A stretch of 55,629 bases of DNA from Parcubacteria group bacterium ADurb.Bin326 (GCA_002068915.1 MWBE01000009.1:1-55629); one strand, 5' to 3'. Positions 87 through 14,231 are shown, numbered from the stretch's first letter. Program-made: numbers and translations. The notes: a model not told the origin generated them from the sequence alone.

Positions 87-404
87 CTAATTCAGGCCAT
101 CAACCAACTCCTTGATTTCTTGGTAATGCTTTTTGACCACTTCTTGATCTCGAAAGTTTTTAGAAAACTCAGCCAATTCACCCAGCACCTTAATAATCGA
201 TTCTTTAGTGGGGTTATTAAAGTCTCCGCCGGTCTTATCAAAAAACTTCATTATGATCTGCCGACAATATTCACGATTCATATCCTTATCTTGGGGAGCA
301 ATTCCTGCTCCCTCACAATGAGCCTGAGCAAAACAATTAACTACCACATCTCTTACCATCAAGGGAGTAAGCGGTTCAACCAAAGTTATGCCATACTTTT
401 CCAT
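87..404 (-). CDS. hypothetical protein (105 aa)
   Basis: Intact ORF starting 5 nt after the stop of the receiver gene on the same strand. No recognisable motif. Confidence 0.5.
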   Translation of the reverse strand: MEKYGITLVEPLTPLMVRDVVVNCFAQAHCEGAGIAPQDKDMNREYCRQIIMKFFDKTGGDFNNPTKESIIKVLGELAEFSKNFRDQEVVKKHYQEIKELVDGLN

Positions 405-408
405 AAAT

Positions 409-777
409 TTATTTTAATTTCTCTTTGACTTTTTTAATTAAGTCTGCCATCTTCCAATCGCTTTTAACCAGATAATCCCTGACGCCACGCTGTACTGCCT
501 GAGCGGTTTTAGCCGCGTCATTGAGATTGGTTAAAACAATTACTTTTGCTTCCTTGCCTGAAGGCTCCAAACGAAGCAAGCGCAACATCTCCATGCCATC
601 CATTATCGGCATGACAATGTCAAGCAATATCAAATCGGGCTTATAACTTACAAAAGTCTCCAATCCACTTTTACCATTACGAGCCACTCGAACCGAAAAT
701 CCTTCCTTGGATAATTTATTTTTCAATGCCGAGGCCAAAGGAAAATCGTCCTCAATCACTAAAATCTTCTTCTTCAT
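409..777 (-). CDS. stand-alone response regulator receiver (CheY-like)
   Basis: KKILVIEDD...DLILLDIVMPIMDG...VLTN...K layout of a REC domain. 122 aa with no output domain. Confidence 0.85.
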   Translation of the reverse strand: MKKKILVIEDDFPLASALKNKLSKEGFSVRVARNGKSGLETFVSYKPDLILLDIVMPIMDGMEMLRLLRLEPSGKEAKVIVLTNLNDAAKTAQAVQRGVRDYLVKSDWKMADLIKKVKEKLK

Positions 778-802
778 ATACTAATTAATATTGTTTGCAC
801 TA

Positions 803-3243
803 CTAACTTAGTTGCTTGGTGCCCGCTTTAGCCTTCATGCCGGAAAGAGGTATCTTAACCTCAAAAATAGTGCCTCTACCCTCTTCTGACTCAAAAGATA
901 TTCTTCCCCCGGATTTCTCTATAATAGATTTTACCAAATAAAGACCCAGTCCGGTACCCTCGGTGTCAAGCGCTTTGACGTTATCGGCACGGAATAATTT
1001 CTCAAAAATTTTATCTTGCTGAGCTTTAGGAATTCCATAGCCAGTATCTTTGACTGATAAAGAAATTGCGGTTTTTTCCAAATTAAGAGACAACTCAACT
1101 CGGCCACCTTCAGGCGTATATTTGACGGCATTACTTAAGAGGTTCTGGAAGACTATTCGCGTCAATTTGGGGTCAACTTTAATTTTAGGAAGATTCTTGG
1201 CAAAAGAAGATTTAAACAAAAGCTTCTTGGCGCTGATCGATGGTTGTTGTTCTTTGATGACATCTTCCGCCAAAAATTTTAAATCAGTTTCTTGAGGCTC
1301 GATTATGAAAGTTCCCAACTCCAGGCGCGAAGTATTAAGCAAAGCATTAACTAATTCCACCATACGCTGATTGCCACGATAGATTTCTTCCAAATAAAGC
1401 TTTTGTTCTTTATTGATTTTACCGGCATCGCCATCGAGCAACATTTCTGCATACCAGCCAATTGCCGACAAAGGAGTCCTTAATTGATGCGAGGCCAAAG
1501 ACACAAACTCGGTTTTTGCCTTATCAACCTGTTTTTCTTTGGTAACATCCTTCTCAATGCCGACAAAAAATTTAACTTCGCCATTATCCTTATCTAAAAT
1601 CGGAGAAATAGTGGCCATAGCAACATAGGCTTCACCGTTTTTGCGACGATTATTGATCTCAGAACGAATTGCCTGCTTATCAATCTTAATCCTCTTCCAA
1701 AGTTTTTTATAAAAATCAATATCCATTAAGCCGCCCCACAATTCCTTGCTACCCGCTTTTTCCCCAGCATTTCATCGATGGAAAATCCCGTGATGCGCCT
1801 GATTGAATCATTAGCGTAAAGAATTATGCCATCGGGATCAGTGATGACAGTGTGGTCGGAAGCGCCATCCACGGCCAAGCGGAATTTTTCTAAATCACCC
1901 ACGAGAGCTTCGGCTCTGTCTTTTTCTAATTGCAAATCCTCCAAAATATTTAAAGCGGCTTCTTGCTGTTGTGAAGCCTTCTCATTAAGACTAAGAAGCT
2001 GTTTTTCTCTTTCCTTAGATTCGCTGATGTCTGACAAAATCCCCACAATTCCAGTCAATCTCTTTCTAGCATCATTATAAGTTGACTTGTAAATCTTGCA
2101 ATATCTATCCGTACCATCGGCAAATCTAATTCCGGACTCATAAATCTGTCTACCCGGATTGGCTAATAGCTCTTCATCTTTTGATTTATATATTTTGCCA
2201 AATTTTTGAGGCACCAATTCTAGGGCTGTTTTTCCTATTACCTCTTTTCTGTCCTTGCCCATTACTTGATCAAAAAAAGCCTTGTTGCCGCCAACATACT
2301 CTCCTTTTATGTTTTTATAAAATATCAGACTGGGAACGGCCTCTATAAGAGATTGAAAAAAAATTGAGTCATTTTTTCTTTTTAACCAAATCCCCAAAAG
2401 AAACAAAGACGCACCCAATAATGAAAGCAATAAAATTGTTATAATCAATAAAAACCAACGATATTCTAAAATTATCTGCTCCAAAGACATTTTTCCATAA
2501 TTTTCAAACGGCCTCAACCTCAGGGTCCTTAAGGTGTCAGCTACTGAATTATAATTACGCGGAGTACTCCAGCCAGAGATACCGACCGCCTGAGCAACCT
2601 GATGATTAGCTGACATACTATACAAAGCTCTGGCCACACTTCTTGACAAAACGTCATCTGTTCCCGCAATCTTGGCCAACAGCCACTCGGGGTACAGACG
2701 AGTGCTTAAAAGAAATGGGAATTTATGATCATCAGAGTAGCCCTCTCTTAAATTAATTATTTTAATATCAGCCAAATCTATCTTGCCATCAGATGCCAAC
2801 TTTTCCAGAGTATCAGTCCTAGCTGTTCCTGCATCAGCTTCACCGCTAAGTACGGCAAAAACGGCTTCGTCATGCCCGCCGGAAAAAATTAATTTCTTAA
2901 AATCAGTAAAAGGATTTATTTTTGCATCATACAATTCCCTATGGGCGGCCACCCAACCGCCAAAAGAATCTTTGTTTACAGCGACAAACCTCTTACCCCG
3001 CAAGTCTTCCAATTTATTTATATCTAAACGGTCGCTTCGAGTAAAAATAACTCCTCCAAATTCTGTAACCTCTACATCTCCGGATTTGCTAATTACCGTA
3101 GCAATTCTACTGACGGCATAGTCATTTTCCATTTCAACAGCAGATTCGACATCTAAGTCATTGGAAACTATGGCTGATTTTATACCTTCTGAATTCAATT
3201 CTTCTTCTATAACTCGGGCCAACAAAGAATCATCTTCCACCAC
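803..3243 (-). pseudogene. sensor histidine kinase (PhnD-like binding domain, TM, PAS, HisKA, HATPase), frame interrupted
   Basis: ORFs 1726..3243 and 803..1741 are one gene. The upstream part has a PBP/PhnD-like domain (FGGW, SGGHD, DAGTARTD), a TM segment (WFLLIITILLLSLLGASLFLLGIWL) and a PAS start. The downstream part continues the PAS (DFYKKLW..NRRKNGE), then the H-box SLASHQLRTPLS and N/G boxes (LLSNAVKYT, DTGYGIP, GTGLGL). The frames meet near the A5 run (T5 on plus, 1757-1761). One extra base would fuse them. Confidence 0.75.
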
Positions 3244-3362
3244 CAGAACTTTTTTACTCCAATTTGGCTAAAAATAGTTTTAAACATAAAAAAACTTGAT
3301 TTTTACTAGATTTATTAATGTTAATTATGCTCCTTTTATAAAAAAGTGTTAATTTTTTCAAT

Positions 3363-3398
3363 AAAAAATAACCAAGATATTAACTTGGTTATTTTTTT
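3363..3398. terminator. bidirectional intrinsic terminator hairpin
   Basis: AATAACCAAG-ATATTAA-CTTGGTTATT perfect 10-bp stem, flanked by an A-run and a T-run. Confidence 0.55.
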
Positions 3399-3463
3399 GG
3401 GTATCCAACAGCCCGCTTTGCGGGCGTGAAAAATTTGGAAAAAATTCTTTAAGTTTCGTATAT

Positions 3464-3676
3464 TCGAAGTTCCTAAACGAAGCTAGAACCTATTTTAAAG
3501 GAAAAACTTAAGTTTTTTCTTATTTTCCAAAATTCCAAACCAAATTTTTTAAGGCCGTGGCGAAATGCGGGCAAAAAATGACTGGGGGTTGGGGGGGAAG
3601 GAATTTTTGCCCGCCCGCCACGGCTTTGAAGCCCAAATCCAAAAAATGCTTTTTCCTGGCCGGCGCCGATTTTTCG
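3464..3676. repeat. IR-A left arm (about 212 bp inverted repeat)
   Basis: Reverse complement of 7334..7545 with 5 substitutions and 1 single-base indel by hand alignment. Confidence 0.9.
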
Positions 3677-3715
3677 TGTCGCGGCTACTGCCGCGACAGC
3701 CCCGCCTTTAAAAAT

Positions 3716-4048
3716 TTATAATCGCTCTTTAATAATAGCCATTAATTCTTTTTCGTCTGAATAAATTCCGTGTCTCAAAAAAACTAAAATTATTATTGAA
3801 TCATTATCTATTGATTTAAAAACCAACCTATAACCATCTGATTTTCCGCAATTTTCTTTGAGTGGTATCACTCTCGCTTTATATAATCTATCATTGCCCA
3901 ATCCAGAATATTTACAAACACCGGCCGTTTCATTAATTCCCTTTAAACAAAAATAGCGTTCCCATGCCTCCAATGATTCTTCGGGCGCTGGAAATCGCTT
4001 TAATTTCTTAAAATCCTTACCAATATCGCAATGTCGCTCAATCTTCAT
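3716..4048 (-). CDS. RelE/ParE-superfamily (HigB/Gp49-like) toxin candidate
   Basis: 110 aa. C-terminal ...KARVIPLKENCGKSDGYRLVFKSIDNDSIIILVFLRHG... matches the K-x-R...GKSgGYR(l/v)(i/v)(y/f)...I.L pattern of RelE-like killers. Starts 10 nt downstream of the PanA gene. Confidence 0.55.
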   Translation of the reverse strand: MKIERHCDIGKDFKKLKRFPAPEESLEAWERYFCLKGINETAGVCKYSGLGNDRLYKARVIPLKENCGKSDGYRLVFKSIDNDSIIILVFLRHGIYSDEKELMAIIKERL

Positions 4049-4057
4049 ACTCGCTAA

Positions 4058-4618
4058 TTAACAATCTTTGCCATCCATTTCACCATATTTATTGCGATAA
4101 TAAGCCAAGTTATAATCGATTATATCATTTGGCTTAGTGGCAATCCATGGCGCCTCACCATGTGTCGCACTTTTCATTTCCGATCCTGAAAATTTTTCCC
4201 ATTTATCGGCCACTTCCTCAAGCATTACGAGTTCCTCTTTATCAAAAACATTCAAATCGTAAAGTTGCAACGCCTCAATGTGCTGTTGATCGTTAATTCC
4301 AACACCAACCTTCCTATTTGTAACCTTAATGTCTTGCCCTTTCATTTTTGTTAGCATTGCCTCACCGTATTTAGGCACCGGCCCATTTTCCCATCGTAAA
4401 TACACATCGCCGGTCACTGAATGGCCATATTTTTCAAAAAAATCAAAATCTAGATAATAAAGCAGCTTCATCATCTTTAATTTGCCCAAGGTGCCATTCT
4501 GTATTTTGTTAGCGAAATACAAAATAGAATTTCTATACTTTTTACTGTCTATTTTAGCCATAAAACTCAATATTGTCTTGTTGATTTTATTATAACACGA
4601 TTTTAAAAAAGAAACCAA
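4058..4618 (-). CDS. Panacea (PanA, DUF4065/SocA-like) antitoxin-domain protein
   Basis: LGKLKMMKLLYYLDFDFFEKYGHSVTGDVYLRWENGPVPKYG matches the K-L-x-K-L-L-Y-Y...W..GPV.P core of DUF4065. Start is either TTG 4618 (2 nt after the AbrB stop) or ATG 4561. Confidence 0.7.
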   Translation of the reverse strand: MVSFLKSCYNKINKTILSFMAKIDSKKYRNSILYFANKIQNGTLGKLKMMKLLYYLDFDFFEKYGHSVTGDVYLRWENGPVPKYGEAMLTKMKGQDIKVTNRKVGVGINDQQHIEALQLYDLNVFDKEELVMLEEVADKWEKFSGSEMKSATHGEAPWIATKPNDIIDYNLAYYRNKYGEMDGKDC

Positions 4619-4619
4619 A

Positions 4620-4775
4620 CTACTTCCAATCTTTCATAACAATACTACGGCCCCTAGTTATTATTGTCAACTTCTGCTTCTCTTTAAGTTTCAATTTATC
4701 CACAATCTCGGCAGGAATGACGATTGCCAAACTTCGTTTACCAACTCTAGTGATTTTCCTAATGTATTTTTCCAT
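4620..4775 (-). CDS. AbrB/MazE/SpoVT-family small DNA-binding protein (51 aa; below ORF-track cutoff)
   Basis: Hand translation: MEKYIRKITRVGKRSLAIVIPAEIVDKLKLKEKQKLTIITRGRSIVMKDWK. The R-x-G-x-S-x-x-V-x-I-P motif is typical of the looped-hinge-helix fold. Confidence 0.7.
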   Translation of the reverse strand: MEKYIRKITRVGKRSLAIVIPAEIVDKLKLKEKQKLTIITRGRSIVMKDWK

Positions 4776-4776
4776 A

Positions 4777-4802
4777 TTTTTTGTTACGTAGCATGTTACG
4801 TA
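4777..4802 (-). promoter_or_regulatory. operator/promoter module TACGTAACATGCTACGTAACAAAAAAT abutting the AbrB start
   Basis: Tandem GTTACGTA half-palindromes. Nearly identical copy (27/29) upstream of the recombinase at 7814..7839. Confidence 0.5.
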
Positions 4803-4820
4803 ATAAAATTAATTACTATA

Positions 4821-5384
4821 CTATTGAACAATACCTTTTCTCGTAATAATCAGCAAATCTTTATGTAATTCTTGATCGCCAGCATGTAAGGCATCTTTTT
4901 CTTGCCAATCGATAGAATATTCTTCATTATTTAGCCTTTTTAGAACATTATTTATTTTTTCAAACATCGGCTTTTCACGCCAAATAGGATAAATTTCCAA
5001 CTTCCCATTAACTTTAAGTGAAGAAATTGCTTCACCAACCACTTTATTGACATCTAATTCGGTATCAGGATTTATAACTGAACGCATTAAAACCATATCG
5101 AATTGCTCGGGTTTAAAAGGCAAATTATCGACTTGACCAACTACATAATGGCCTTTGACTTTAGCGGCTAATTCTTGGCTAACTGGCGGTCGCAAATCAA
5201 CGCCTACAATGCCATCAATATTATTTTCAAGACAGAATTCAATAAACTGCGCCTCATCGCCACAACCAATATCCAATATTTTTTTATCTTTCAATGCTTC
5301 CGCGTCTAATTCAAAATCATTAATATATCTCTTTGCTTGATCGCTAATTTCTATATTTTGACTGAATCTTTCTGCATTATGCAT
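4821..5384 (-). CDS. class I SAM-dependent methyltransferase
   Basis: Motif I ILDIGCGDE, then a VGVDL acidic loop and FDMVLM motif. 187 aa. Confidence 0.75.
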   Translation of the reverse strand: MHNAERFSQNIEISDQAKRYINDFELDAEALKDKKILDIGCGDEAQFIEFCLENNIDGIVGVDLRPPVSQELAAKVKGHYVVGQVDNLPFKPEQFDMVLMRSVINPDTELDVNKVVGEAISSLKVNGKLEIYPIWREKPMFEKINNVLKRLNNEEYSIDWQEKDALHAGDQELHKDLLIITRKGIVQ

Positions 5385-5392
5385 AAATAATA

Positions 5393-5857
5393 TTATTGTT
5401 GTTTATCCGCTTTTGACGCCTCTCCCTCTAACACCGCCTTCTGTTCGCTCAATAAATGGAATTGATATTGAGGGTATGCTTCTTGCAATGGCCTTTTAAG
5501 ACCAGAAAAAACGTCATTAATAAAAACATGTTTAACGCCACTATCTTGAATTTTTTCTTTATATCCGGAGGTCAAAACTGCCAAGCCGTCTTTATAGGCG
5601 GTGCCACCACCAGTTCCCAGAGCTGAAGCTAATCCAGCTTTAACATCGGCTGGTACTTCAAATGGAGCAGTATAAAAATCATGGTCTTTGCTTATTCCAT
5701 GATCAAGTAAATTCAATAACTGATCGAGTTGTTGGGATTTGGCTACCCCGTGAGCATCATAATTAATTCCTATCTCGCCATCGACTGTTTGGAACATTTC
5801 ATCATTTTCGGGATTAATTCCCTGACTAACCATAAACATCTCGTCCCTAAGCGTCAT
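5393..5857 (-). CDS. hypothetical protein (154 aa); may be the 3' part of a larger gene
   Basis: Same frame as 5963..6547, separated only by one TAA (5963-5965) and a 105-nt open stretch. Confidence 0.45.
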   Translation of the reverse strand: MTLRDEMFMVSQGINPENDEMFQTVDGEIGINYDAHGVAKSQQLDQLLNLLDHGISKDHDFYTAPFEVPADVKAGLASALGTGGGTAYKDGLAVLTSGYKEKIQDSGVKHVFINDVFSGLKRPLQEAYPQYQFHLLSEQKAVLEGEASKADKQQ

Positions 5858-5962
5858 TCGTTTCTTTAATCCTATATCATTGTATTTTTGTTTTATGTCT
5901 TCTACTAATTTAGCCTTTTCCTCGGGGGATAACTCTTGATTATTAGTGTTATGACTCTCTGT

Positions 5963-6547
5963 TTATTTCTCGTTTTCAGTAGATAGTTTTTCCAGATTAA
6001 TATCAGGAGTCCAATCAACTTTTGCAAACCGCTTAAAATCAGGCATTAAATTATCTACTGTATCGCCTGCTTTTATTGGTTTACCCGCCATGGCCGCCCT
6101 CAATCTTTCGTCATATTCCCTGATTTTTTCCTTGCCGGCACCCTTAAATGCTTCAGCCATAAAATTAAAGCCGGCTTTTATATCTCTAGCTTTTTGCTCT
6201 TCTGGCGATAATATTTCTGCGTCTGTCGCTTCTATTAAGGATTGTTCAACTGGCTGAACTGGCAAGCCTAATTCTGTTCTAATTTCGTTAGCCCGATTAG
6301 CTGAATTAATCTCATCCTCCTGAGCCATTCTTTTTGTTTCTTGTCTTGCTTCTTGAGCGAGTAAAACTGCCTCTTTCGATTCTTCTTCTTTATCTTTTTC
6401 CGGATTTAATTTAGCTTCAATGGCTGTTCGAAAAGAATCGGGCAGCCCTTTCATAATTTCTTCGCTCGATTCTCCACTCTGAATACGACCGACATATTCC
6501 TCAACTTTTGCGGCACCGCCAGTTAGTTTTTGTTCTGGATTGATCAT
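5963..6547 (-). CDS. hypothetical Glu/Lys-rich protein (194 aa)
   Basis: Intact ORF with no recognisable motif. Confidence 0.45.
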   Translation of the reverse strand: MINPEQKLTGGAAKVEEYVGRIQSGESSEEIMKGLPDSFRTAIEAKLNPEKDKEEESKEAVLLAQEARQETKRMAQEDEINSANRANEIRTELGLPVQPVEQSLIEATDAEILSPEEQKARDIKAGFNFMAEAFKGAGKEKIREYDERLRAAMAGKPIKAGDTVDNLMPDFKRFAKVDWTPDINLEKLSTENEK

Positions 6548-6561
6548 AACTTGATAATAAT

Positions 6562-6932
6562 TTAATCAGTAACGACTTCAATTGGCTTGATTATTATACT
6601 AAAGCCGCTATCCATTGACTGTGATACTAATTTTAAACTTTCACCGATCAGGATTGTAAAATTTGAATTTGTACTTGATTTCATCAAATCAATGCCACCA
6701 TTAGCCCCCTCGGTTACTAATCCGCTTGATTGGATTTCAATTTTATTGTCATCAACAGAAGTTATTTCTAAAACGGGATGCTTTATGACGAATGCGGCGC
6801 CGATAAATCCGCCGAGGTCTCGCTCGCTTAATTTGTCTCCTACCGAAAAAACTTTTTCAATGTCTTGTGGCTCAGTAATTTTCCCAGCGAGTCCATCCCA
6901 AGCCCTAAGGTTAAAATTGTTCTAACTTTCAT
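6562..6932 (-). pseudogene. frameshifted small ORF (about 122 aa if repaired)
   Basis: ATG at 6932 opens MKVRTIL... and stops after 30 codons. An adjacent frame is open for 119 codons (6565-6921: ...RAWDGLAGKITEPQDIEKVFSVGDKLSERDLGGFIGAAFVIKHP...VVTD) but has no start. One extra T in the T4 run would join them. The plus-strand ORF 6587..6925 is its shadow. Confidence 0.4.
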
Positions 6933-6955
6933 AGTTTTGATTATTAATTAACAAA

Positions 6956-7174
6956 TTATATTAATTCATTAATATTTTTCTTATACATTTTAGCGAACGC
7001 CTTAAGCTCAATAATATCAAGACGATATGACCCCGATTCGACTCGGGAAATATAAGATTGCGGCCGCTTTATCTTCTTAGCCACCTCAATCTGTTTCAAG
7101 CCAGCATCAAGTCGGGCTTGCCGTAATTTCCTAATAAATTCGGCATATTCTTTTGTCCAAACCGTCTTACTCAT
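6956..7174 (-). CDS. XRE-family helix-turn-helix regulator
   Basis: LRQARLDAGLKQIEVAKKIKRPQSYISRVESG is a canonical Cro/C1 HTH. 72 aa. Confidence 0.85.
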   Translation of the reverse strand: MSKTVWTKEYAEFIRKLRQARLDAGLKQIEVAKKIKRPQSYISRVESGSYRLDIIELKAFAKMYKKNINELI

Positions 7175-7333
7175 ATAATAGTATTATATATCCGAAAAAT
7201 CTATATCTAAAATCTGGATATAATATTTTTATTGTGATACTATATAAGGGAGTGCCGTTTGCGCGCGCACGGGAGGGCGGGGCAAGCGCACTTAAAATCT
7301 ACGGGCGGCGCCCCGATGCCCTAAGGCATCGGT

Positions 7334-7545
7334 CGAAAAATCGGCGCCGGCCAGGAAAAAGCATTTTTAGATTTGGGCTTCAAGGCCGTGGCGGGCGGGC
7401 AAAAATTCCTTCCCCCCCAACCCCCAGTCATTTTTTGCCCGCATTCCGCCACGGCCTTAAAAAATTTGGTTTGGAATTTTGGAAAATAAGAAAAAACTTA
7501 AGTTTTTCCTTTAAAATAGGTTCGAGCTTCGTTTAGGAGCTTCGA
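7334..7545. repeat. IR-A right arm
   Basis: Reverse complement of 3464..3676. Directly contiguous with the recombinase 3'-end copy (7543..7701). Confidence 0.9.
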
Positions 7546-7707
7546 CATAAAACAACTTTCCAAAAATTTCGTTTTTTGTTCGCGCCCTTCAGGCGCGAGC
7601 TTAGTGATTTCTTCCCCCAATTTTTCTTTTAATTCAGCCAAGAATTTAAAATCAGAATTCCAATCCCACCCGACTTTCCGCCCCCAGAGGCGGCGGTTCG
7701 TAATCAT
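7498..7707 (-). pseudogene. orphan 3'-end fragment of a serine recombinase gene (IR-B inner arm, 7543..7701)
   Basis: Encodes ...NRRLWGRKVGWDWNSDFKFLAELKEKLGEEITKLAPEGREQKTKFLESCFMS, identical but for one residue to the last 53 aa of the 7853..9369 product. 159 nt with 1 mismatch to the reverse complement of 9205..9363. Confidence 0.9.
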
Positions 7708-7813
7708 TTCGCTTTTGAGATAATTGTGGTCTCAAACGCGGAATGATAGCCGGCTAATGCCGGCACCGTTTCTTTTCACCGCCTCGCCTTAAAGCGAGGC
7801 GACAAAGCCACGC

Positions 7814-7839
7814 TACATAACGTGCTACGTAACAAAAAA
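7814..7839 (+). promoter_or_regulatory. second copy of the TAC(A/G)TAAC(G/A)TGCTACGTAACAAAAAAT module, 13 nt upstream of the recombinase ATG
   Basis: Hand alignment with the reverse strand of 4777..4802. Confidence 0.5.
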
Positions 7840-7852
7840 TAATCCCTTAAAT

Positions 7853-9369
7853 ATGAAATATTTTCTCTACGCCCGAAAGTCGACCGAGAACGAAGAACGC
7901 CAAGTCATGAGTATTGAAGCCCAGCTGGCGGAGTTGGCGGACTTCGCCAAGAGGGAAAATATAGAAATTGCCGAGACGTTCATCGAGAGCAAGAGCGCAA
8001 AGAAACCGGGTCGAGAGATTTTTAACAAGATGATTACCACTATTGAAGCCAGCGCCGAGCCGGTCGGCATCATGGCGTGGCATCCGGACAGGTTGGCGCG
8101 TAACATTATTGATGGCGGACAAATAATTTACTTAATCGACACGGAACGCGTGGTTTCTTTGCGCTTCCCCACATTTTGGTTTGAGCCAACTCCGCAGGGA
8201 TTATTTATGTTGCAGGTCGCTTTCGGGCAGAGCAAATATTATTCGGATAACCTTAGCGAGAACGTTAAGCGAGGCCAAAGGCAGAAGCTCAGGCGCGGGG
8301 AATGGCGCCATATGGGTATATAAACAACGCCAGTACTAGAAATATAGACATTGACCCAGTCAAGGCCAAAATCGTAAAACTGGCGTTCAAGGAGTTTGGC
8401 GAGGGCAAGCATACTTTGTCGAGCTTGAGCGGACGCCTGTTTGAACTCGGAGCAGTCGGTCGTACCGGCAGACCTCTTTGCGTGGCGGTACTGGCGCAGA
8501 TGATGCGGCAAAAAGCGTATATGGGGATAATCACTCGCAAAGGAGAAAGTTATGAAGGCAACTTTGATCCGATTGTTTCCTTGAGCGATTTTGAAGCCGT
8601 CCAAAAACGATTAAAGAGCAAGGCCAAGCCGAGGAAAGTGAAGAAAGGTCATAACTTCCCTTTCGTCGGACTTCTCACCTGTGGCAAGTGCGGAGCGGCT
8701 ATCACGGCACAATACGCGCATGGCCATGGCGGGACATACGTCTATTATCGTTGCACTAAACGGCTTGGCCCCTGCTCGCAAAAATATATCGGATCAAACG
8801 CACTCATCGAGCAACTGAAAGGACGGCTAGAAAAAATCGCTCTTAAAGACGAGTGGGCAAAGTATATGCTCGACGAAGTGACAAAATGGGAAAAAGAGGA
8901 AAAATCCGGCGGCAAGGAATTCGCCCAAAATCTGGAAATGAAGATTGTTGAGGTCGACAAAAAATTGAACATGCTCGTCGACGAATATCTTGAAGGCAAT
9001 ATTGAAAAAGAAATCTACCTAAAGAAGAAAGATGAATTGGTCAAAACAAAAACAGACCTCAATAAGAAGAGATCTGATTTTGGGCGAAAGGGAAACAATT
9101 GGATCGAACCTATGCGAGAATGGATAAAAGAGGCTAATCGCGCAGGAAATGCGGCTTTGTTAAATGATTTTATAGCAATAAAATCATTTGTGAAAAGAAA
9201 CGGAACGAACCGCCGCCTCTGGGGGCGGAAAGTCGGGTGGGATTGGAATTCTGATTTTAAATTCTTGGCTGAATTAAAAGAAAAATTGGGGGAAGAAATC
9301 GCTAAGCTCGCGCCTGAAGGGCGCGAACAAAAAACGAAATTTTTGGAAAGTTGTTTTATGTCGGGCTGA
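7853..9369 (+). pseudogene. large serine recombinase (resolvase catalytic domain, recombinase domain, Zn ribbon, coiled coil), frame interrupted at 8302-8323
   Basis: N-terminus YARKST(catalytic S)...HPDRLARN...KRGQRQKLRRGEW stops at 8323. The -1 frame continues MAPYGYIN...CGKCGAAITAQYAHGHGGTYVYYRC... One extra G after TGG (8303-8305) would give ...RRGEWAPYGY.... Confidence 0.85.
9205..9363. repeat. IR-B outer arm (3' end of recombinase ORF)
   Basis: Reverse complement of 7543..7701 with 1 mismatch (9300, G vs A). Confidence 0.9.
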
Positions 9370-9434
9370 CAGGACTTGAACCTGCGACCTCGTCGTCCCG
9401 AACGACGCGCGCTAGCCAACTGCGCTACAGCCCG
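9361..9434 (-). tRNA. tRNA-Pro (anticodon CGG)
   Basis: Hand-folded cloverleaf: acceptor CGGGCTG/CAGCCCG, D arm GCGC/GCGC, anticodon stem CGTCG/CGACG with loop TTCGGGA (U33, CGG, G37), T arm GCAGG-TTCAAGT-CCTGT, discriminator A. CCA is not encoded. Confidence 0.9.
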
Positions 9435-9584
9435 ATATTGTATTTTAAAAAACGCTTAACCTTGTGTCCCTGAAACAGCCGGCCTACTAGCCAACTGCGC
9501 TACAGCCCGATATTGTATTTTAAAAAACGCTTAACCTCGTGTCCCTGAAACAGCCGGCCTACTAGCCAACTGCGCTACAGCCCG
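9412..9584. repeat. 75-bp tandem repeat: tRNA-Pro nt 1-23 plus 52 nt of upstream sequence, two extra copies
   Basis: TGCGCTACAGCCCG recurs at 9421, 9496 and 9571 (period 75). Units differ by one base (cttgtg vs ctcgtg). Confidence 0.9.
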
Positions 9585-9587
9585 TGG

Positions 9588-11773: not shown

Positions 11774-12026
11774 AATCTTTGAGATTAAGTTAATAATTAT
11801 TAGGATTTACTTATCCACATAGTTAATTATAGTTAAAAAAACAAGCAAAAGCAAGGAAAAATAAGGTTTTTTGTTAATGGTAAGGCGTAAATAAAAGGTT
11901 TTTGATGATTTACATCGTATTGAAGATTTAACTAGACGTGGGAAAATAAATAATAATAATGTTTAAATTTAAATAAAAAAGCCGACTTCACAGTCGGCAG
12001 AAAACAACAAACCGCGGAAACGAGCT

Positions 12027-12377
12027 TCAGCAAGACCTATGTAATTCCTCTACTTGCTTGTTCCAGAATCTCTCAATGATTCCGGGCAAACCGACGCGCT
12101 GACCATCGCTGACCCGAATCCGCTCCCAATGTATCGTCTCCCGCTTCGCGTCTGTATACGCAAAATGACGCTCCGAGAAGTACTCTCCCCCGAAGACAAC
12201 AATTTGCATATCAACTTCCAACGAAGGGTGAAATTCATTGCGAGAAACCCCAAACGTCCAATGAAGCAAGTGATAGATGTCGTACCACAAGGCGCGAAAG
12301 CCCAGGTTCCAAAACAACACTTTGACCTTGTAGTAGATTCGTGCATCAATTCTTAGTCCCAGCACTTTCTTGGTCAT
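12027..12377 (-). CDS. GC-rich orphan hypothetical protein (116 aa from ATG 12377)
   Basis: GAAGGAG 8 nt upstream of ATG 12377. Terminator GCCGACT-GTGAA-GTCGGC plus a T-run downstream (11987-12010). 33/60 G+C in line 12061-12120. Confidence 0.5.
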   Translation of the reverse strand: MTKKVLGLRIDARIYYKVKVLFWNLGFRALWYDIYHLLHWTFGVSRNEFHPSLEVDMQIVVFGGEYFSERHFAYTDAKRETIHWERIRVSDGQRVGLPGIIERFWNKQVEELHRSC

Positions 12378-12443
12378 TTTCTCTTCTCCTTCTGTTGTAA
12401 TCGCCACGGGTTGTAAAAAAAGGTTCTAACTATATTTAAACCA

Positions 12444-14231
12444 CTAGGACACTTTCCTAGCAGCTCTTACTCTATCAACTTCGGTCAATAACTGCTTACG
12501 CAAACGGATTGATTTGGGAGTTACTTCCAAATATTCGTCCTCCGCCATAACTTCCAATCCTCTTTCCAAAGTAATTTTCCAAGGCGGAGTCAATTTGATG
12601 GCTTCATCGGCACCGGAAGAACGCATATTAGTGAGGTTTTTGCCCTTGACTGCATTGACAGTCATATCGTTTCCTTTGGCTACATTGCCAATTACCTGTC
12701 CTTCATAAATATCCTCAGCCGCATCAATATAAAGCACGCCACGATTTTGTAAATTATCCAAAGCGTAAGCGGCGGCCTTGCCCAGCTCGCAAGAAATCAT
12801 GGATCCAATGTCGCGTTTTTCAACGGCACCGGCATGAGGCTTGAAACCAATGACGCGAGTACAAAGAATGCCCTCGCCACGAGTGTCTACTACAAATTCC
12901 CCACGATAGCCCAAAAGTCCGCGAGTCGGGATTTCAAAAATCATCCTGGTCTGTCCTCCGGTCTGATCCATATGGACAATAGTTCCCTTGCGCTTAGACA
13001 GTTTCTCAATTACCACGCCGGAACAATCAGTTGGTACATCGATGGTCGCTTCCTCAAACGGCTCGTGCTTAACGCCATCGATTTCTTTGATAATCACCTG
13101 TGGTTGAGACACTTGCAACTCAAAACCTTCACGACGCATATTTTCAATCAAAATAGCGATATGTAATTCGCCGCGGCCGTAAACCTTATAAAAATCACCG
13201 GAAGAAAAATCAATCTTCAGTCCAACGTTAACTTCCAGTTCTTTCTCTAATCTTTCTTTGATCTGTTTGGAGGTAACAAACTTGCCTTCACGACCGGCGA
13301 AAGGCGAACTATTAACCAAAAAATTCAAACAAATAGTCGGTTCGTCAATGGAGATAGCTGGCAAAGCCTCCTGATCGGCGTTATTGCAAATGGTATCGCC
13401 GATAAAAATGTCGGGGATACCGGCAATCATGGCAATGTCTCCTGCTTGAGCCTCACTGACTTCTTCGCGTTGCAATCCCTTGAAGGTAAAAATTTTGGTA
13501 ATCTTGCCGGTAGTTACTCCGCCCTCAGCTTTTTTTACTGTTACGGTTTCGCCGGTTTTGATTTTGCCTTCATAAATTCTAGCGATAGCTAGACGTCCGA
13601 GAAAATCATCATAAGCCAAATTGAACGGCTGAGCGCGCAATGGAGCCTGAACATTGTTTTCTGACGGCTTAACTTTGGCCAGGATTACTTCCAAAAGTGG
13701 ATCGAGGTTGTGAGAAATATCATCAAGATTAAGTTTGGCTACGCCCTCGCGTGCCACAGCATAAACAGTAGTGAAATCTAATTGGTTATCATCGGCTCCT
13801 AAATCCAAAAATAATTCGTAAACCTCTTCCTGCACCATATCCACGCGAGCAGCCGGTTTGTCAATTTTGTTGATAACAACTATCGGATGCAAGCCTAATT
13901 CCAAAGATTTTTTCAAAACAAACCTGGTTTGAGGCATCGGTCCTTCCTGCGCATCAACTACCAAAATAACCGAGTCAATAGAACGCAAAACACGCTCCAC
14001 TTCAGATCCAAAGTCGGCGTGTCCGGGTGTATCAACAATATTAATTTTGGTGTCTTTATAGAAAAGCGAACCATTTTTGGAATAAATAGTAATGCCACGC
14101 TCTTTTTCCAAGGCATTTTGATCCATAGAAAAATCGGCCGACACCATGCCGGTTTGCTTGAGTAAGGCGTCAGTCAAGGCGGTTTTGCCGTGGTCGACGT
14201 GGGCAATAATGGCTACATTTCTTATTTCCAT
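12444..14231 (-). CDS. typA: translational GTPase TypA/BipA
   Basis: [19 protein letters not shown]...DTPGHADFG...NKID. About 595 aa from ATG 14231. The ORF-track start at 14282 is an upstream alternative codon. Confidence 0.93.

What the first reader, a model, noticed from the sequence alone, without database searches (positions are those of the whole stretch)
3244..9585. tRNA-Pro-anchored island: three junctions share only a TCG core, as expected for attL / attP-like / attR of a serine-integrase element
The recombinase ORF ends ...ATG TCG GGC TGA (9358-9369), while the tRNA-Pro 3' end is at 9361. Its last codons therefore overlap the acceptor stem. Three junctions read: ttttatgTCGggctgac (9354-9370, recombinase end | tRNA); ttttatgTCGaagctcc (reverse strand of 7536-7552, recombinase-end copy | IR-A); cgtatatTCGaagttcc (3457-3473, left flank | IR-A). 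Identity switches abruptly at TCG in each case. Left of 3464 the sequence is only distantly similar to the recombinase 3' end, with the same hairpin plus GGAAA layout. Right of it the sequence is about 97% identical to the other IR-A arm. This is the pattern of site-specific crossover at or next to TCG. It implies an attP that lies inside the recombinase coding end. It also implies an internal, inverted, intact attP-like copy in the same island, which is not a standard prophage or ICE layout.
Basis: partly seen in the sequence, partly recalled or inferred. Interest (0 to 1): 0.75.

Follow-up and report, generated by a model that had tools for sequence, protein, structure and literature searches.

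The report
Serine-integrase tRNA island with spare attP
This is a small mobile island inserted at the very end of a proline tRNA gene by a large serine integrase; it carries a second, upside-down copy of its own attachment site, and the same odd layout recurs in dozens of related loci sampled from a family of thousands of relatives, apparently without having been described.

Summary
Two long inverted repeats (3464-3676 / 7334-7545, 97%; 7543-7701 / 9205-9363, 99%) meet on the same 3 bp (TCG). The third TCG is the last 3 nt of tRNA-Pro(CGG).

It is not a one-off. In 82 related loci the integrase ORF runs into a convergent tRNA 3' end in about 55. In about 72 the gene's last 90-200 bp recur inverted upstream. 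In at least 16 the cargo is bracketed by a second inverted repeat. The shared core changes with the tRNA targeted.

The cargo-side arm carries a T-loop-like CGAAC motif. It lies exactly 5 bp further from the crossover than the tRNA's own T-loop in 35 of 35 loci. This is the published attP/attB geometry of serine integrases.

So 9363 is attR and 7545 is an intact, inverted attP. The site at 3464 is not a clean attL. Its left flank is a diverged integrase-end arm left by an earlier element.

The integrase here is dead (10-bp deletion). Cargo is toxin-antitoxin and methylase genes; relatives carry restriction systems. Rearranged relatives suggest the spare attP is active. What it is for remains inferred.

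The parts
3403..3463 (+). P* arm: a 61-nt remnant of the 3' end of a related recombinase gene (hairpin cagcccgctttgcgggcg, A/T tract, AAGTT motif). It forms the left side of junction S1.
   Evidence: BLAST gives 97% over 3403-3433 to L002 11458-11488. A global alignment gives 48/64 identical to the L002 P arm, with shuffles reaching at most 41. The spacing to TCG is the same as in P arms.
3464..3466 (.). S1 core TCG, junction P*|P'.
   Evidence: Start of inverted repeat I1; sequence.
3464..3676 (+). IR-A left arm, the P' arm of the attachment site. The P' half-site is aagttcctaaacgaagctagaacc at 3467-3490. The arm also holds a conserved hairpin with a G-rich loop at 3553-3624.
   Evidence: I1 and I3. 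P' consensus and CGAAC at +19. Hairpin covariation.
3716..7174 (-). Cargo, all on the minus strand. ORFs: 110 aa (no family); 186 aa SocA/Panacea antitoxin-like; 51 aa AbrB/MazE-like; 187 aa SAM methyltransferase; 154 aa and 194 aa unknown; 72 aa XRE-type HTH next to S2. A promoter-like site lies at 7211-7183.
   Evidence: ORFs; Pfam, PHROGs and PADLOC; promoter scan.
7334..7545 (-). IR-A right arm, an inverted copy of the P' arm. Its copy of the hairpin is at 7384-7456.
   Evidence: I1 and I3.
7543..7545 (.). S2 core (CGA on the + strand, TCG on the - strand). This is the centre of the intact inverted attP: read on the minus strand it gives P|P'.
   Evidence: I1 ends at 7545 and I2 starts at 7543.
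7543..7701 (-). Inverted copy of the P arm, i.e. of the last 159 nt of the recombinase gene.
   Evidence: I2, 99%. A further 14-nt piece continues at 7766-7779 vs 9190-9203 (I21).
7749..7841 (+). Recombinase upstream region. It contains a terminator-like hairpin at 7749-7764. It also contains the repeated GCTACGTAAC motif at 7814-7841, which recurs inverted at 4775-4802 in front of the AbrB/MazE-like gene.
   Evidence: hairpin; I4 (28 nt, 93%).
7853..9369 (+). Large serine recombinase gene, inactivated by a 10-bp deletion between 8298 and 8299. The ORFs are 7853-8323 and 8302-9369.
   Evidence: Pfam. Alignment with L001 and L002. Intact 508-aa relatives exist. The same split occurs in the independent assembly L087.
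9205..9363 (+). P arm of the attachment site. It encodes the variable C-terminal tail of the recombinase, starting at the invariant GTNRRL motif.
   Evidence: I2; invariant columns of alignment A1; P consensus.
9361..9363 (.). S3 core TCG, which is the reverse complement of tRNA positions 71-73. Junction P|B' (attR).
9361..9434 (-). tRNA-Pro(CGG). Its acceptor and T arms form the B' half-site.
   Evidence: ARAGORN; Rfam 65 bits.

Best explanation
**What it is.** Window 3464-9363 is an integrated copy of a small island. It belongs to a very large clade of large serine recombinases (LSRs) that insert at the extreme 3' end of tRNA genes. This copy is now immobile.

**Shown.**
- Strand exchange lies within TCG. 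That is tRNA positions 71-73, so only the discriminator and trailer are replaced and the tRNA stays intact.
- The P arm of attP is the last ~60-160 nt of the recombinase ORF.
- The P' arm imitates the tRNA T-arm, with its CGAAC motif 5 bp further out. This is what an LSR needs to tell attP from attB.
- 9363 is attR.
- 7545 is a second, complete attP in inverted orientation. The recombinase gene therefore sits between inverted P arms, and the cargo sits between inverted P' arms.
- 3464 joins P' to a leftover P arm of a related element.

**Inferred.**
- The central dinucleotide is probably CG.
- The element integrated into the attR of an earlier occupant. Newcomers insert next to the tRNA, so the older element was pushed left and then decayed.
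- Excision by attL x attR would give a circle with two inverted attPs, and either could be used for integration.
- The attP left in the chromosome stays reactive. It can recombine with other tRNA genes or other junctions. That would flip the recombinase module, invert chromosome segments between tRNA genes, or swap or lose cargo.
- An AbrB/XRE-type regulator of the cargo probably controls the recombinase promoter through the shared GCTACGTAAC operator.

**State of this copy.** A 10-bp deletion has killed the recombinase.
For: **Enzyme.** The recombinase has Resolvase + Recombinase + Zn-ribbon domains. It has more than 6,600 relatives at E <= 1e-20, including intact 508-aa ones. It is distantly related to the SPbeta and A118 integrases.

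**Family-wide tRNA abutment.** The ORF runs into a convergent tRNA in about 55 of 82 loci. Most are Pro, but Met, Gln, Trp, Lys, His, Ala, Arg, Asp, Phe and Ser also occur.

**Inverted copy of the gene's 3' end.** It lies upstream in about 72 of 82 loci and is mostly 97-100% identical within a locus.

**Second inverted repeat around the cargo.** It was found in about 20 of 36 loci with enough upstream sequence.

**Triple junctions.** The core covaries with the tRNA: TCG for Pro, CTG for Gln, TTG for Met, TGC for Arg, CAG for Trp. In several loci the host arm is terminator-like.

**Site geometry.** CGAAC lies at +19 in P' against +14 in the tRNA arm in 35/35 loci. This matches the published shift of the zinc-ribbon (ZD) motif 5 bp towards the centre in attB (PMC3783163).

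**Polymorphism and turnover.**
- A near-identical strain, L001, has flanks 99.7% identical but a recombinase module only 88% identical, and it carries no cargo.
- L096 has a 130-bp P'-P scar at the same tRNA.

**Evidence that the spare attP acts.**
- In L033 the recombinase module lies between two convergent tRNA-Pro genes (3' ends facing the module) and has two different P arms.
- In L064 the module is flipped relative to its close relative L073.
- 23 of 120 family proteins end in P'-encoded tails.

**Tandem arrays.** L098 and L100 show them.

**P\* arm.**
Against: - No empty tRNA-Pro site, and no circular junction distinguishable from S2, was found for this lineage.
- No recombination directionality factor was identified.
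- No experiment exists for any member of the clade, as far as the paper searches show.
- The P arm is not a mirror image of P'. The dyad search gives only a weak peak at C|G, so the exact crossover dinucleotide is unproven.
- Canonical LSRs do not recombine attP with attR or attL. The proposed accretion and rearrangements therefore need either relaxed rules or rare events.
- Some alternative junctions come from short or low-coverage metagenomic contigs. Inverted repeats longer than the assembler's k-mer can be mis-joined.
- Long, near-identical inverted repeats could be kept alike by gene conversion without any function.
Confidence: 0.72

Rival explanations
1. The element is an ordinary serine-integrase island. 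The inverted attP is a neutral duplication that arose once in the clade's ancestor. Gene conversion between close inverted repeats keeps the copies alike. The spare site plays no part in the element's life cycle.
For: - Within-locus identity of the repeat arms is usually 97-100% although loci differ widely. Gene conversion would produce this.
- The repeats are far longer (90-400 bp) than an LSR half-site needs.
- Canonical LSRs do not use attP with anything other than attB (PMC3783163 abstract).
Against: - The layout is retained across recombinases only 54-92% identical in several phyla. That is hard to explain for a neutral duplication in streamlined genomes.
- The copy always ends exactly at the core and always keeps a complete P|P' site.
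- Products expected from its use exist: L033, L064, and the P'-encoded tails.
- Some loci have arms of different origin (L001 88%, L033 79%). This fits site-specific exchange better than pure conversion.
Confidence: 0.15
2. The system is two separate palindrome-ended modules rather than one element. The first is an IS-like unit, rc(P)-recombinase-P, whose circular junction would be P|rc(P). The second is a non-autonomous cargo cassette, P'-cargo-rc(P'). They insert next to each other at tRNA ends and move independently.
For: - Recombinase-only units occur without cargo (L001, L033).
- P|rc(P) head-to-head palindromes occur in L065 and L068.
- A tiny palindromic insert flanked by inverted P' ends lies left of S1 in L002.
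- Cargo is highly variable while the recombinase module is conserved.
- For tRNA-Pro the probable central dinucleotide CG is palindromic. That would remove site polarity (for the principle).
Against: - Members on tRNA-Gln, Met, Trp and Lys have non-palindromic cores and the same layout. Two inverted ends could then only invert, not excise.
- No free rc(P')|tRNA junction (cargo alone next to a tRNA) was seen.
- L096 shows a simple P'...P scar, as expected of a single element.
Confidence: 0.1
3. The recombinase acts mainly as a DNA invertase, like Hin. The segment between the inverted P arms flips as a switch, and the tRNA association is incidental.
For: - The recombinase gene lies inside inverted repeats, as hin does.
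- Both orientations exist among close relatives (L064 vs L073).
- Contigs often break at the repeats.
Against: - The protein is a 508-aa LSR with a zinc ribbon, not a ~190-aa Hin-type invertase.
- At least 11 different tRNA species are targeted at the same tRNA position, with a matching core.
- The attP/attB-type +5 geometry holds.
- Strain-level presence or absence of cargo and a scar remnant point to insertion and loss.
- Flipping changes neither junction sequence, and no regulated neighbour is evident.
Confidence: 0.03

Closest known systems
Phage and prophage serine integrases (A118/LI, SPbeta SprA, Bxb1, phiC31)
   Same: - Same domain set: Resolvase, Recombinase, Zn ribbon.
- Short att sites that share only the crossover core.
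- The zinc-ribbon motif lies 5 bp closer to the centre in the host-type half-site than in the element-type half-site.
   Different: - Only distant sequence similarity (SPbeta E 2e-15, A118 9e-5).
- The target is the last nucleotides of tRNA genes.
- The P arm lies inside the integrase ORF.
- A second, inverted, complete attP is a fixed part of the element.
- The elements are 2-10 kb with no phage genes, and only 3 relatives were found in IMG/VR.
SCCmec-type cassettes moved by the Ccr serine recombinases
   Same: An LSR inserts a non-phage, non-conjugative cargo cassette at the 3' end of a conserved housekeeping gene. Tandem arrays of cassettes form at the site.
   Different: - NCBIfam Ccr models score far below cutoff (83 vs 900 bits).
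- The target is a tRNA, not rlmH.
- There is a single recombinase.
- SCC elements are not known to carry an internal inverted attP (my knowledge).
Classical tRNA-integrating genomic islands and prophages (tyrosine integrases, e.g. P4-like)
   Same: The island sits at a tRNA 3' end, restores the tRNA end, has the integrase gene at the tRNA-proximal edge, carries defence or TA cargo, and accretes in tandem.
   Different: The enzyme is a serine recombinase, not a tyrosine recombinase. There is no 15-50-bp direct repeat of the tRNA 3' end; only 3-9 bp are shared.
Hin/Gin-type invertible segments
   Same: The recombinase gene is enclosed by inverted crossover sites. The enclosed segment is found in both orientations among relatives.
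   Different: It is an LSR rather than a small invertase. The sites are attP/attR-type rather than hix/gix-type. The system is clearly insertional.
Yeast 2-micron plasmid (FLP/FRT), as an architectural analogy only
   Same: The predicted excised circle would consist of two unique segments separated by two long inverted repeats. Each repeat has a recombinase site at its centre.
   Different: The enzyme there is a tyrosine recombinase in a eukaryotic plasmid with replication functions. No replication gene is seen here, and no circle has been observed.

Membership tests
Large serine recombinases (serine integrases) | N-terminal resolvase-type catalytic domain with the serine nucleophile | tested here: met
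   PF00239 at E 8e-22 on 7853-8320. S10 in YARKS is invariant in the 32-sequence alignment.
Large serine recombinases (serine integrases) | C-terminal recombinase domain plus zinc-ribbon domain | tested here: met
   PF07508 at 1e-8 and PF13408 at 2e-9 on 8302-9366. The protein aligns to the SPbeta and A118 integrase C-terminal domains.
Large serine recombinases (serine integrases) | Coiled-coil insertion in the zinc-ribbon domain, which controls directionality | not tested
   A long charged helical stretch follows the zinc ribbon, and the alignment to SPbeta spans residues 6-410. No structure prediction was run.
Large serine recombinases (serine integrases) | attP and attB share only a short core around a 2-bp crossover; no long identity | tested here: met
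   The three junctions share 3 bp in the window. They share 3-9 bp in 16 other loci.
Large serine recombinases (serine integrases) | Outer (ZD) motif 5 bp closer to the centre in attB-type than in attP-type half-sites | tested here: met
   GAAC lies at +14 in the tRNA arm and +19 in the P' arm in 35/35 loci including the window. The rule is taken from PMC3783163.
Large serine recombinases (serine integrases) | Quasi-palindromic half-sites about the central dinucleotide | tested here: inconclusive
   An inner GTT...AAC dyad about C|G is visible. The profile dyad score at that centre (0.314) is not the unique maximum.
Large serine recombinases (serine integrases) | Demonstrated attP x attB recombination, with RDF-dependent excision | not testable with these tools
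   There is only comparative evidence. No RDF was identified. An HTH_17 gene in the L002 cargo is a lead only.
Tyrosine-integrase tRNA islands | Tyrosine recombinase, with a direct repeat of the tRNA 3' segment at both ends | tested here: not met
   No tyrosine recombinase is present in 3244-9585. The only direct repeat between the ends is TCG.
Hin/Gin small serine invertases | Protein of about 190 aa with a C-terminal HTH; about 26-bp inverted crossover sites | tested here: not met
   The intact length is 508 aa and the protein has LSR domains. The sites have attP/attB-type geometry.
Ccr recombinases, XisF, IS607 transposases (named NCBIfam equivalogs) | Score above the curated family cutoff | tested here: not met
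   XisF 85 vs 375 bits; CcrB 83 vs 900; IS607 24 vs 110.
TnpX/TndX-type LSR transposons (Tn4451, Tn5397) | GA dinucleotide at both ends and many target sites | tested here: not met
   The cores are tRNA-derived (TCG, CTG, TTG and others), and insertion is confined to tRNA 3' ends. The definition of this family is from my own knowledge.

The most novel reading that the evidence does not exclude
The duplicated inverted attP is a working part of the system. These islands would then be a natural two-site serine-integrase platform. Either attP can integrate the circle. The one left over in the chromosome stays live. It would mediate flipping of the integrase module and exchange or loss of defence cargo cassettes between inverted P' arms, as in natural recombinase-mediated cassette exchange. 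It would also mediate chromosomal inversions between tRNA genes in small-genome bacteria. That would require an LSR clade able to use site pairings beyond attP x attB.
Probability: 0.35. Interest if true: 0.8.

Novelty: new variant of a known kind. Interest (0 to 1): 0.68.

Why it matters
1. It defines a very abundant, apparently undescribed clade of serine integrases in CPR/Patescibacteria, Omnitrophota and Bacteroidota. Its att sites can be read straight from genomes. The target is the T-arm and acceptor end of a tRNA, and the core follows the tRNA. That is useful raw material for integrase engineering.
2. It shows how small defence and toxin-antitoxin cassettes are mobilised in bacteria with tiny genomes, where few mobile elements are known.
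3. A conserved, complete second attP in inverted orientation is not part of the textbook picture of serine-integrase elements. If it is active it would explain tRNA-to-tRNA inversions, cargo turnover at one site, and the frequent assembly breaks at these loci.
4. The +5-bp motif shift, seen in 35 natural attP/attB pairs, is independent comparative support for the structural model of attP/attB discrimination.

Tried and rejected
- **Empty site or circle.** I looked up 10 contigs encoding the identical neighbouring SpoU methylase. I also scanned metagenome contigs for the 40-nt tRNA arm. Every informative contig carries the recombinase module or a scar, and none is empty.
- **L087.** It joins window 3922 to window 583, but at 1x coverage, so I did not rely on it.
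- **Chance or homologous-recombination origin of the junctions.** Rejected, because the pattern recurs and the core covaries with the tRNA.
- **Phage or inovirus origin.** Rejected.
- **Known RNA family in the G+C-rich arms.** Rfam gives nothing at E <= 1.
- **Cargo orientation flips.** Only three relatives share recognisable cargo genes, and all have the window's orientation. Cargo inversion is therefore untested.
- **Left boundary of an older element near window 141-151.** The TCGAAAG there does not carry the P' motif, so I dropped it.
- **Dyad search for the crossover dinucleotide.** Inconclusive.
- **Literature.** Six full-text searches found no description of this clade or layout.

Full report
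**1.

- ARAGORN and Rfam place tRNA-Pro(CGG) on the minus strand at 9360/9361-9434.
- The ORF 8302-9369 ends ATG TCG GGC TGA, so its last codons overlap the acceptor stem.
- The repeat finder returns two long inverted repeats. I1 is 3464-3645 vs 7364-7545 (97%), continuing after an indel to 3676/7334. I2 is 7543-7701 vs 9205-9363 (99%).
- I1 ends at 7545 and I2 begins at 7543. The two repeats therefore share exactly the three bases CGA, which read TCG on the other strand.
- The far end of I2 (9363) is tRNA position 71, and the far end of I1 is the TCG at 3464-3466.

I call the three junctions S1 (3464), S2 (7545) and S3 (9363). I call the recombinase-end arm P, the cargo-side arm P', and the tRNA arm B'.

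**2. The enzyme**

The two ORFs 7853-8323 and 8302-9369 together carry Resolvase, Recombinase and Zn_ribbon_recom domains, which makes a large serine recombinase.
- The split is caused by a 10-bp deletion between 8298 and 8299, relative to two relatives.
- The same split gene is present in an independent assembly (L087). It is therefore a real pseudogene, not an assembly error.
- Intact 508-aa relatives exist, the closest at 92% identity. More than 6,600 cluster representatives match at E <= 1e-20, mostly from Patescibacteria-type metagenome bins.
- The nearest solved structures are the SPbeta integrase (E 2e-15) and the A118 integrase (9e-5).
- No curated NCBIfam family is reached.

**3. The pattern belongs to the whole clade**

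I fetched 80 loci from one-genome-per-species assemblies, with recombinases 54-85% identical, plus two loci from metagenomes.
- In about 55 of the 82 loci the ORF runs into a convergent tRNA gene. Most are tRNA-Pro with any of three anticodons. Met, Gln, Trp, Lys, His, Ala, Arg, Asp, Phe and Ser also occur.
- In about 72 of 82 the last 90-200 bp of the gene recur inverted 120-300 bp upstream of the start codon. The two copies are usually 97-100% identical within a locus.
- In about 20 of the 36 loci with enough upstream sequence, the 150-400 bp beyond that copy recur inverted 1.4-9.3 kb further upstream.
- About 60 of the 82 contigs end within a few hundred bases of the gene, as expected if assemblers break on these repeats.

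Writing out the junctions for 16 loci gives the same picture each time: S3 = P|tRNA end, S2 = P|P', S1 = X|P' (more loci). The shared core changes with the tRNA. It is TCG for Pro, CTG for Gln, TTG for Met, TGC for Arg and CAG for Trp. Where the CCA end is genome-encoded, the core is extended by tgg. A recombination site whose core tracks the target is strong evidence for site-specific exchange at tRNA positions 71-73.

**4. The site architecture is that of a serine integrase**

The P' arms share a consensus..TatTgAACgaaGc.CGAACcTaTTTTgA.
- Their CGAAC lies at +19 from the point where S2 and S3 diverge.
- The T-loop GAAC of the tRNA arm lies at +14.
- The difference is 5 bp in all 35 informative loci, including the window.

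So P' is an attP-type half-site that mimics a tRNA T-arm, and the tRNA is the attB-type half-site.

The P arms have their own consensus, gAaa.t....aAaGTt...ttTgG-TCG. An inner GTT/AAC dyad centres on C|G, which suggests CG as the central dinucleotide. The profile dyad score there is not a unique maximum, so I treat this as tentative. For tRNA-Pro that dinucleotide would be palindromic, which in LSRs removes polarity (principle quoted). Members on other tRNAs have non-palindromic cores and the same layout, so palindromy does not explain the architecture.

**5. S1 in this window is not a clean attL**

The 61 nt left of 3464 are a full-length P-type arm.
- The length from the hairpin to TCG (59 nt) is the same as in L002.
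- AAGTT sits at -13..-9.
- Window 3403-3433 is 97% identical to L002.
- Over the whole arm, 48 of 64 positions are identical, against at most 41 in 500 shuffles.

L031 shows the same thing with an L021-type arm. In other loci the arm left of S1 is a terminator-like hairpin, as expected of the native tRNA trailer. L098 and L100 show recombinase-P|P'-cargo arrays whose repeat copies have diverged (83-87%), so they are not assembly collapses.

The simplest reading is accretion. A newcomer recombines with the attR (P|tRNA) of a resident element, because the tRNA half-site is what matters. This leaves P_old|P'_new on the left and P_new|tRNA on the right. In the window the older element has decayed to its last 61 nt.

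**6. Evidence of turnover and of activity of the internal attP**

- L001 comes from a near-identical strain (flanks 99.5-99.7%). It has an intact recombinase module that is only 88% identical. It lacks window 142-7541. In place of the cargo it has a 17-nt piece of a P' arm fused to the inverted P arm through TCGA.
- L096 is another genome with the same tRNA. It has only a 130-bp P'-P fusion between two TCGs, which is a scar with clean attL- and attR-type ends.
- In L033 the recombinase module lies between two convergent tRNA-Pro genes (GGG and CGG; 3' ends facing the module) and has two different P arms. That is the product expected if the internal attP recombined with a second tRNA gene.
- In L064 the module is flipped: the tRNA abuts the upstream copy and P' follows the gene. 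Its close relative L073 has the usual order.
- L065 and L068 contain P|rc(P) palindromes.
- Of the 120 best family proteins, 23 end in a P'-encoded tail (for example WSQLLNEVRTYFE). The rest mostly end in an antisense-tRNA tail (for example WSGRQDLN).
- L099 has its gene reading into P|P' and then the cargo. Both contig ends stop inside the repeat. This fits either a flipped module or a circle with two inverted attPs, and I cannot tell which.

**7. Content**

- The window's cargo is seven minus-strand ORFs. They include a SocA/Panacea antitoxin-like protein, an AbrB/MazE-like protein, a SAM methyltransferase and an XRE-type regulator next to S2.
- Relatives carry a type I restriction system (L031), a methylase with an AAA_15 ATPase (L041), GmrSD with AAA_13 and an EcoRI-type methylase (L072), and a Fic protein (L027).
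- No replication, transfer or virion genes were seen.
- Only three weak relatives occur in IMG/VR.
- A 28-nt motif with repeated GCTACGTAAC lies in front of both the recombinase gene (7814-7841) and the AbrB-like gene (4775-4802, inverted). This suggests common repression.

**8. Mechanism, and what is inferred**

Shown by sequence and comparison:
- an LSR element at a tRNA end;
- the core lies within TCG;
- the P arm lies inside the ORF;
- the P' arm mimics the T-arm with the +5 shift;
- there is a complete second attP in inverted orientation;
- the layout is general to the clade;
- the integrase here is dead.

Inferred:
- CG is the crossover dinucleotide;
- the element accreted into an older attR;
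- excision yields a circle with two inverted attPs;
- the chromosomal spare attP remains reactive.

The purpose of the spare site is unknown. Canonical LSRs recombine only attP with attB, so a spare attP in the chromosome can still attack any other suitable tRNA gene. That fits L033.

Rival readings are given with their weights in the rival explanations. They are a neutral duplication kept alike by gene conversion, two independent palindrome-ended modules, and a Hin-like switch.

**9. Novelty**

Six full-text searches found no paper describing this clade, its tRNA-end targeting or the doubled attP. Subscription journals are not covered.

I file it as a new variant of a known kind. It is clearly a serine-integrase integrative element. 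It has a fixed architecture (integrase gene between inverted P arms, cargo between inverted P' arms) that I cannot match to any described system.

Noticed in passing
window 9412-9584: A 75-bp tandem repeat lies just 5' of the tRNA. Each unit holds the first 23 nt of tRNA-Pro, 52 nt of other sequence and a promoter-like site (GGGACA-17-TAAAAT). There are 2.3 copies here and more in strain L001; L096 also shows the repeat, with about 1.3 units. Several contigs end inside it. Its origin is unknown.
   Followed up: partly
window 3553-3624 and 7384-7456 (inside the IR-A arms): A conserved hairpin has an 11-bp stem, and 9 of its pairs show compensatory changes across 12 loci. The G-rich loop, GGGGGTTGGGGGGAAGGAA, has a nearly invariant G-rich core. 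It is present in many family members, once in reverse orientation (L072). It has no Rfam match. Whether it is an RNA or a DNA element is unknown.
   Followed up: partly
window 3677-3703 vs 7303-7330: Just inside the inverted repeat each arm continues with its own hairpin. The S1 side has GTCGCGGC...GCCGCGAC and the S2 side has CCGATGCC...GGCATCGG. Each is conserved arm-specifically in L002 and L005.
   Followed up: no
window 4775-4802 and 7814-7841: A 28-nt inverted match (93%) contains repeated GCTACGTAAC. It lies in front of the AbrB/MazE-like gene and in front of the recombinase gene. L002 conserves it at 96%. It is probably a shared operator.
   Followed up: no
window 142-3403 (part of the 105-aa ORF, a response regulator, and two sensor-kinase ORFs): This block is absent from the near-identical strain L001, where the 105-aa ORF is cut after its last ~18 codons. 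It is either a deletion in L001 or cargo of the older, decayed element. I did not resolve which.
   Followed up: partly
window 11881-12459: This segment, which includes ORF 12027-12407, is replaced by about 130 bp in L001, L088 and L091. It is a second strain-level indel, unrelated to the island.
   Followed up: no
L087 7835 (window 3922 joined to window 583): An independent assembly carries the same element with the same dead recombinase. It joins the 110-aa cargo gene directly to the response-regulator gene, and the left part is only 85% identical. Coverage is 1x, so this may be a chimera.
   Followed up: no
family proteins P0001-P0120: The C-terminal 20-50 residues of these recombinases are translations of antisense tRNA (for example WSGRQDLNLRP) or of the P' arm. 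Everything after the invariant GTNRRL motif is encoded by the att arm and varies with the insertion site.
   Followed up: partly
L002 4130-4195: Left of S1 in L002 lies a perfect palindrome, gagcttCGAcaaataaaaatacagc...gctgtatttttatttgTCGaagctc. It looks like a ~60-bp hairpin element inserted between inverted P' ends.
   Followed up: no
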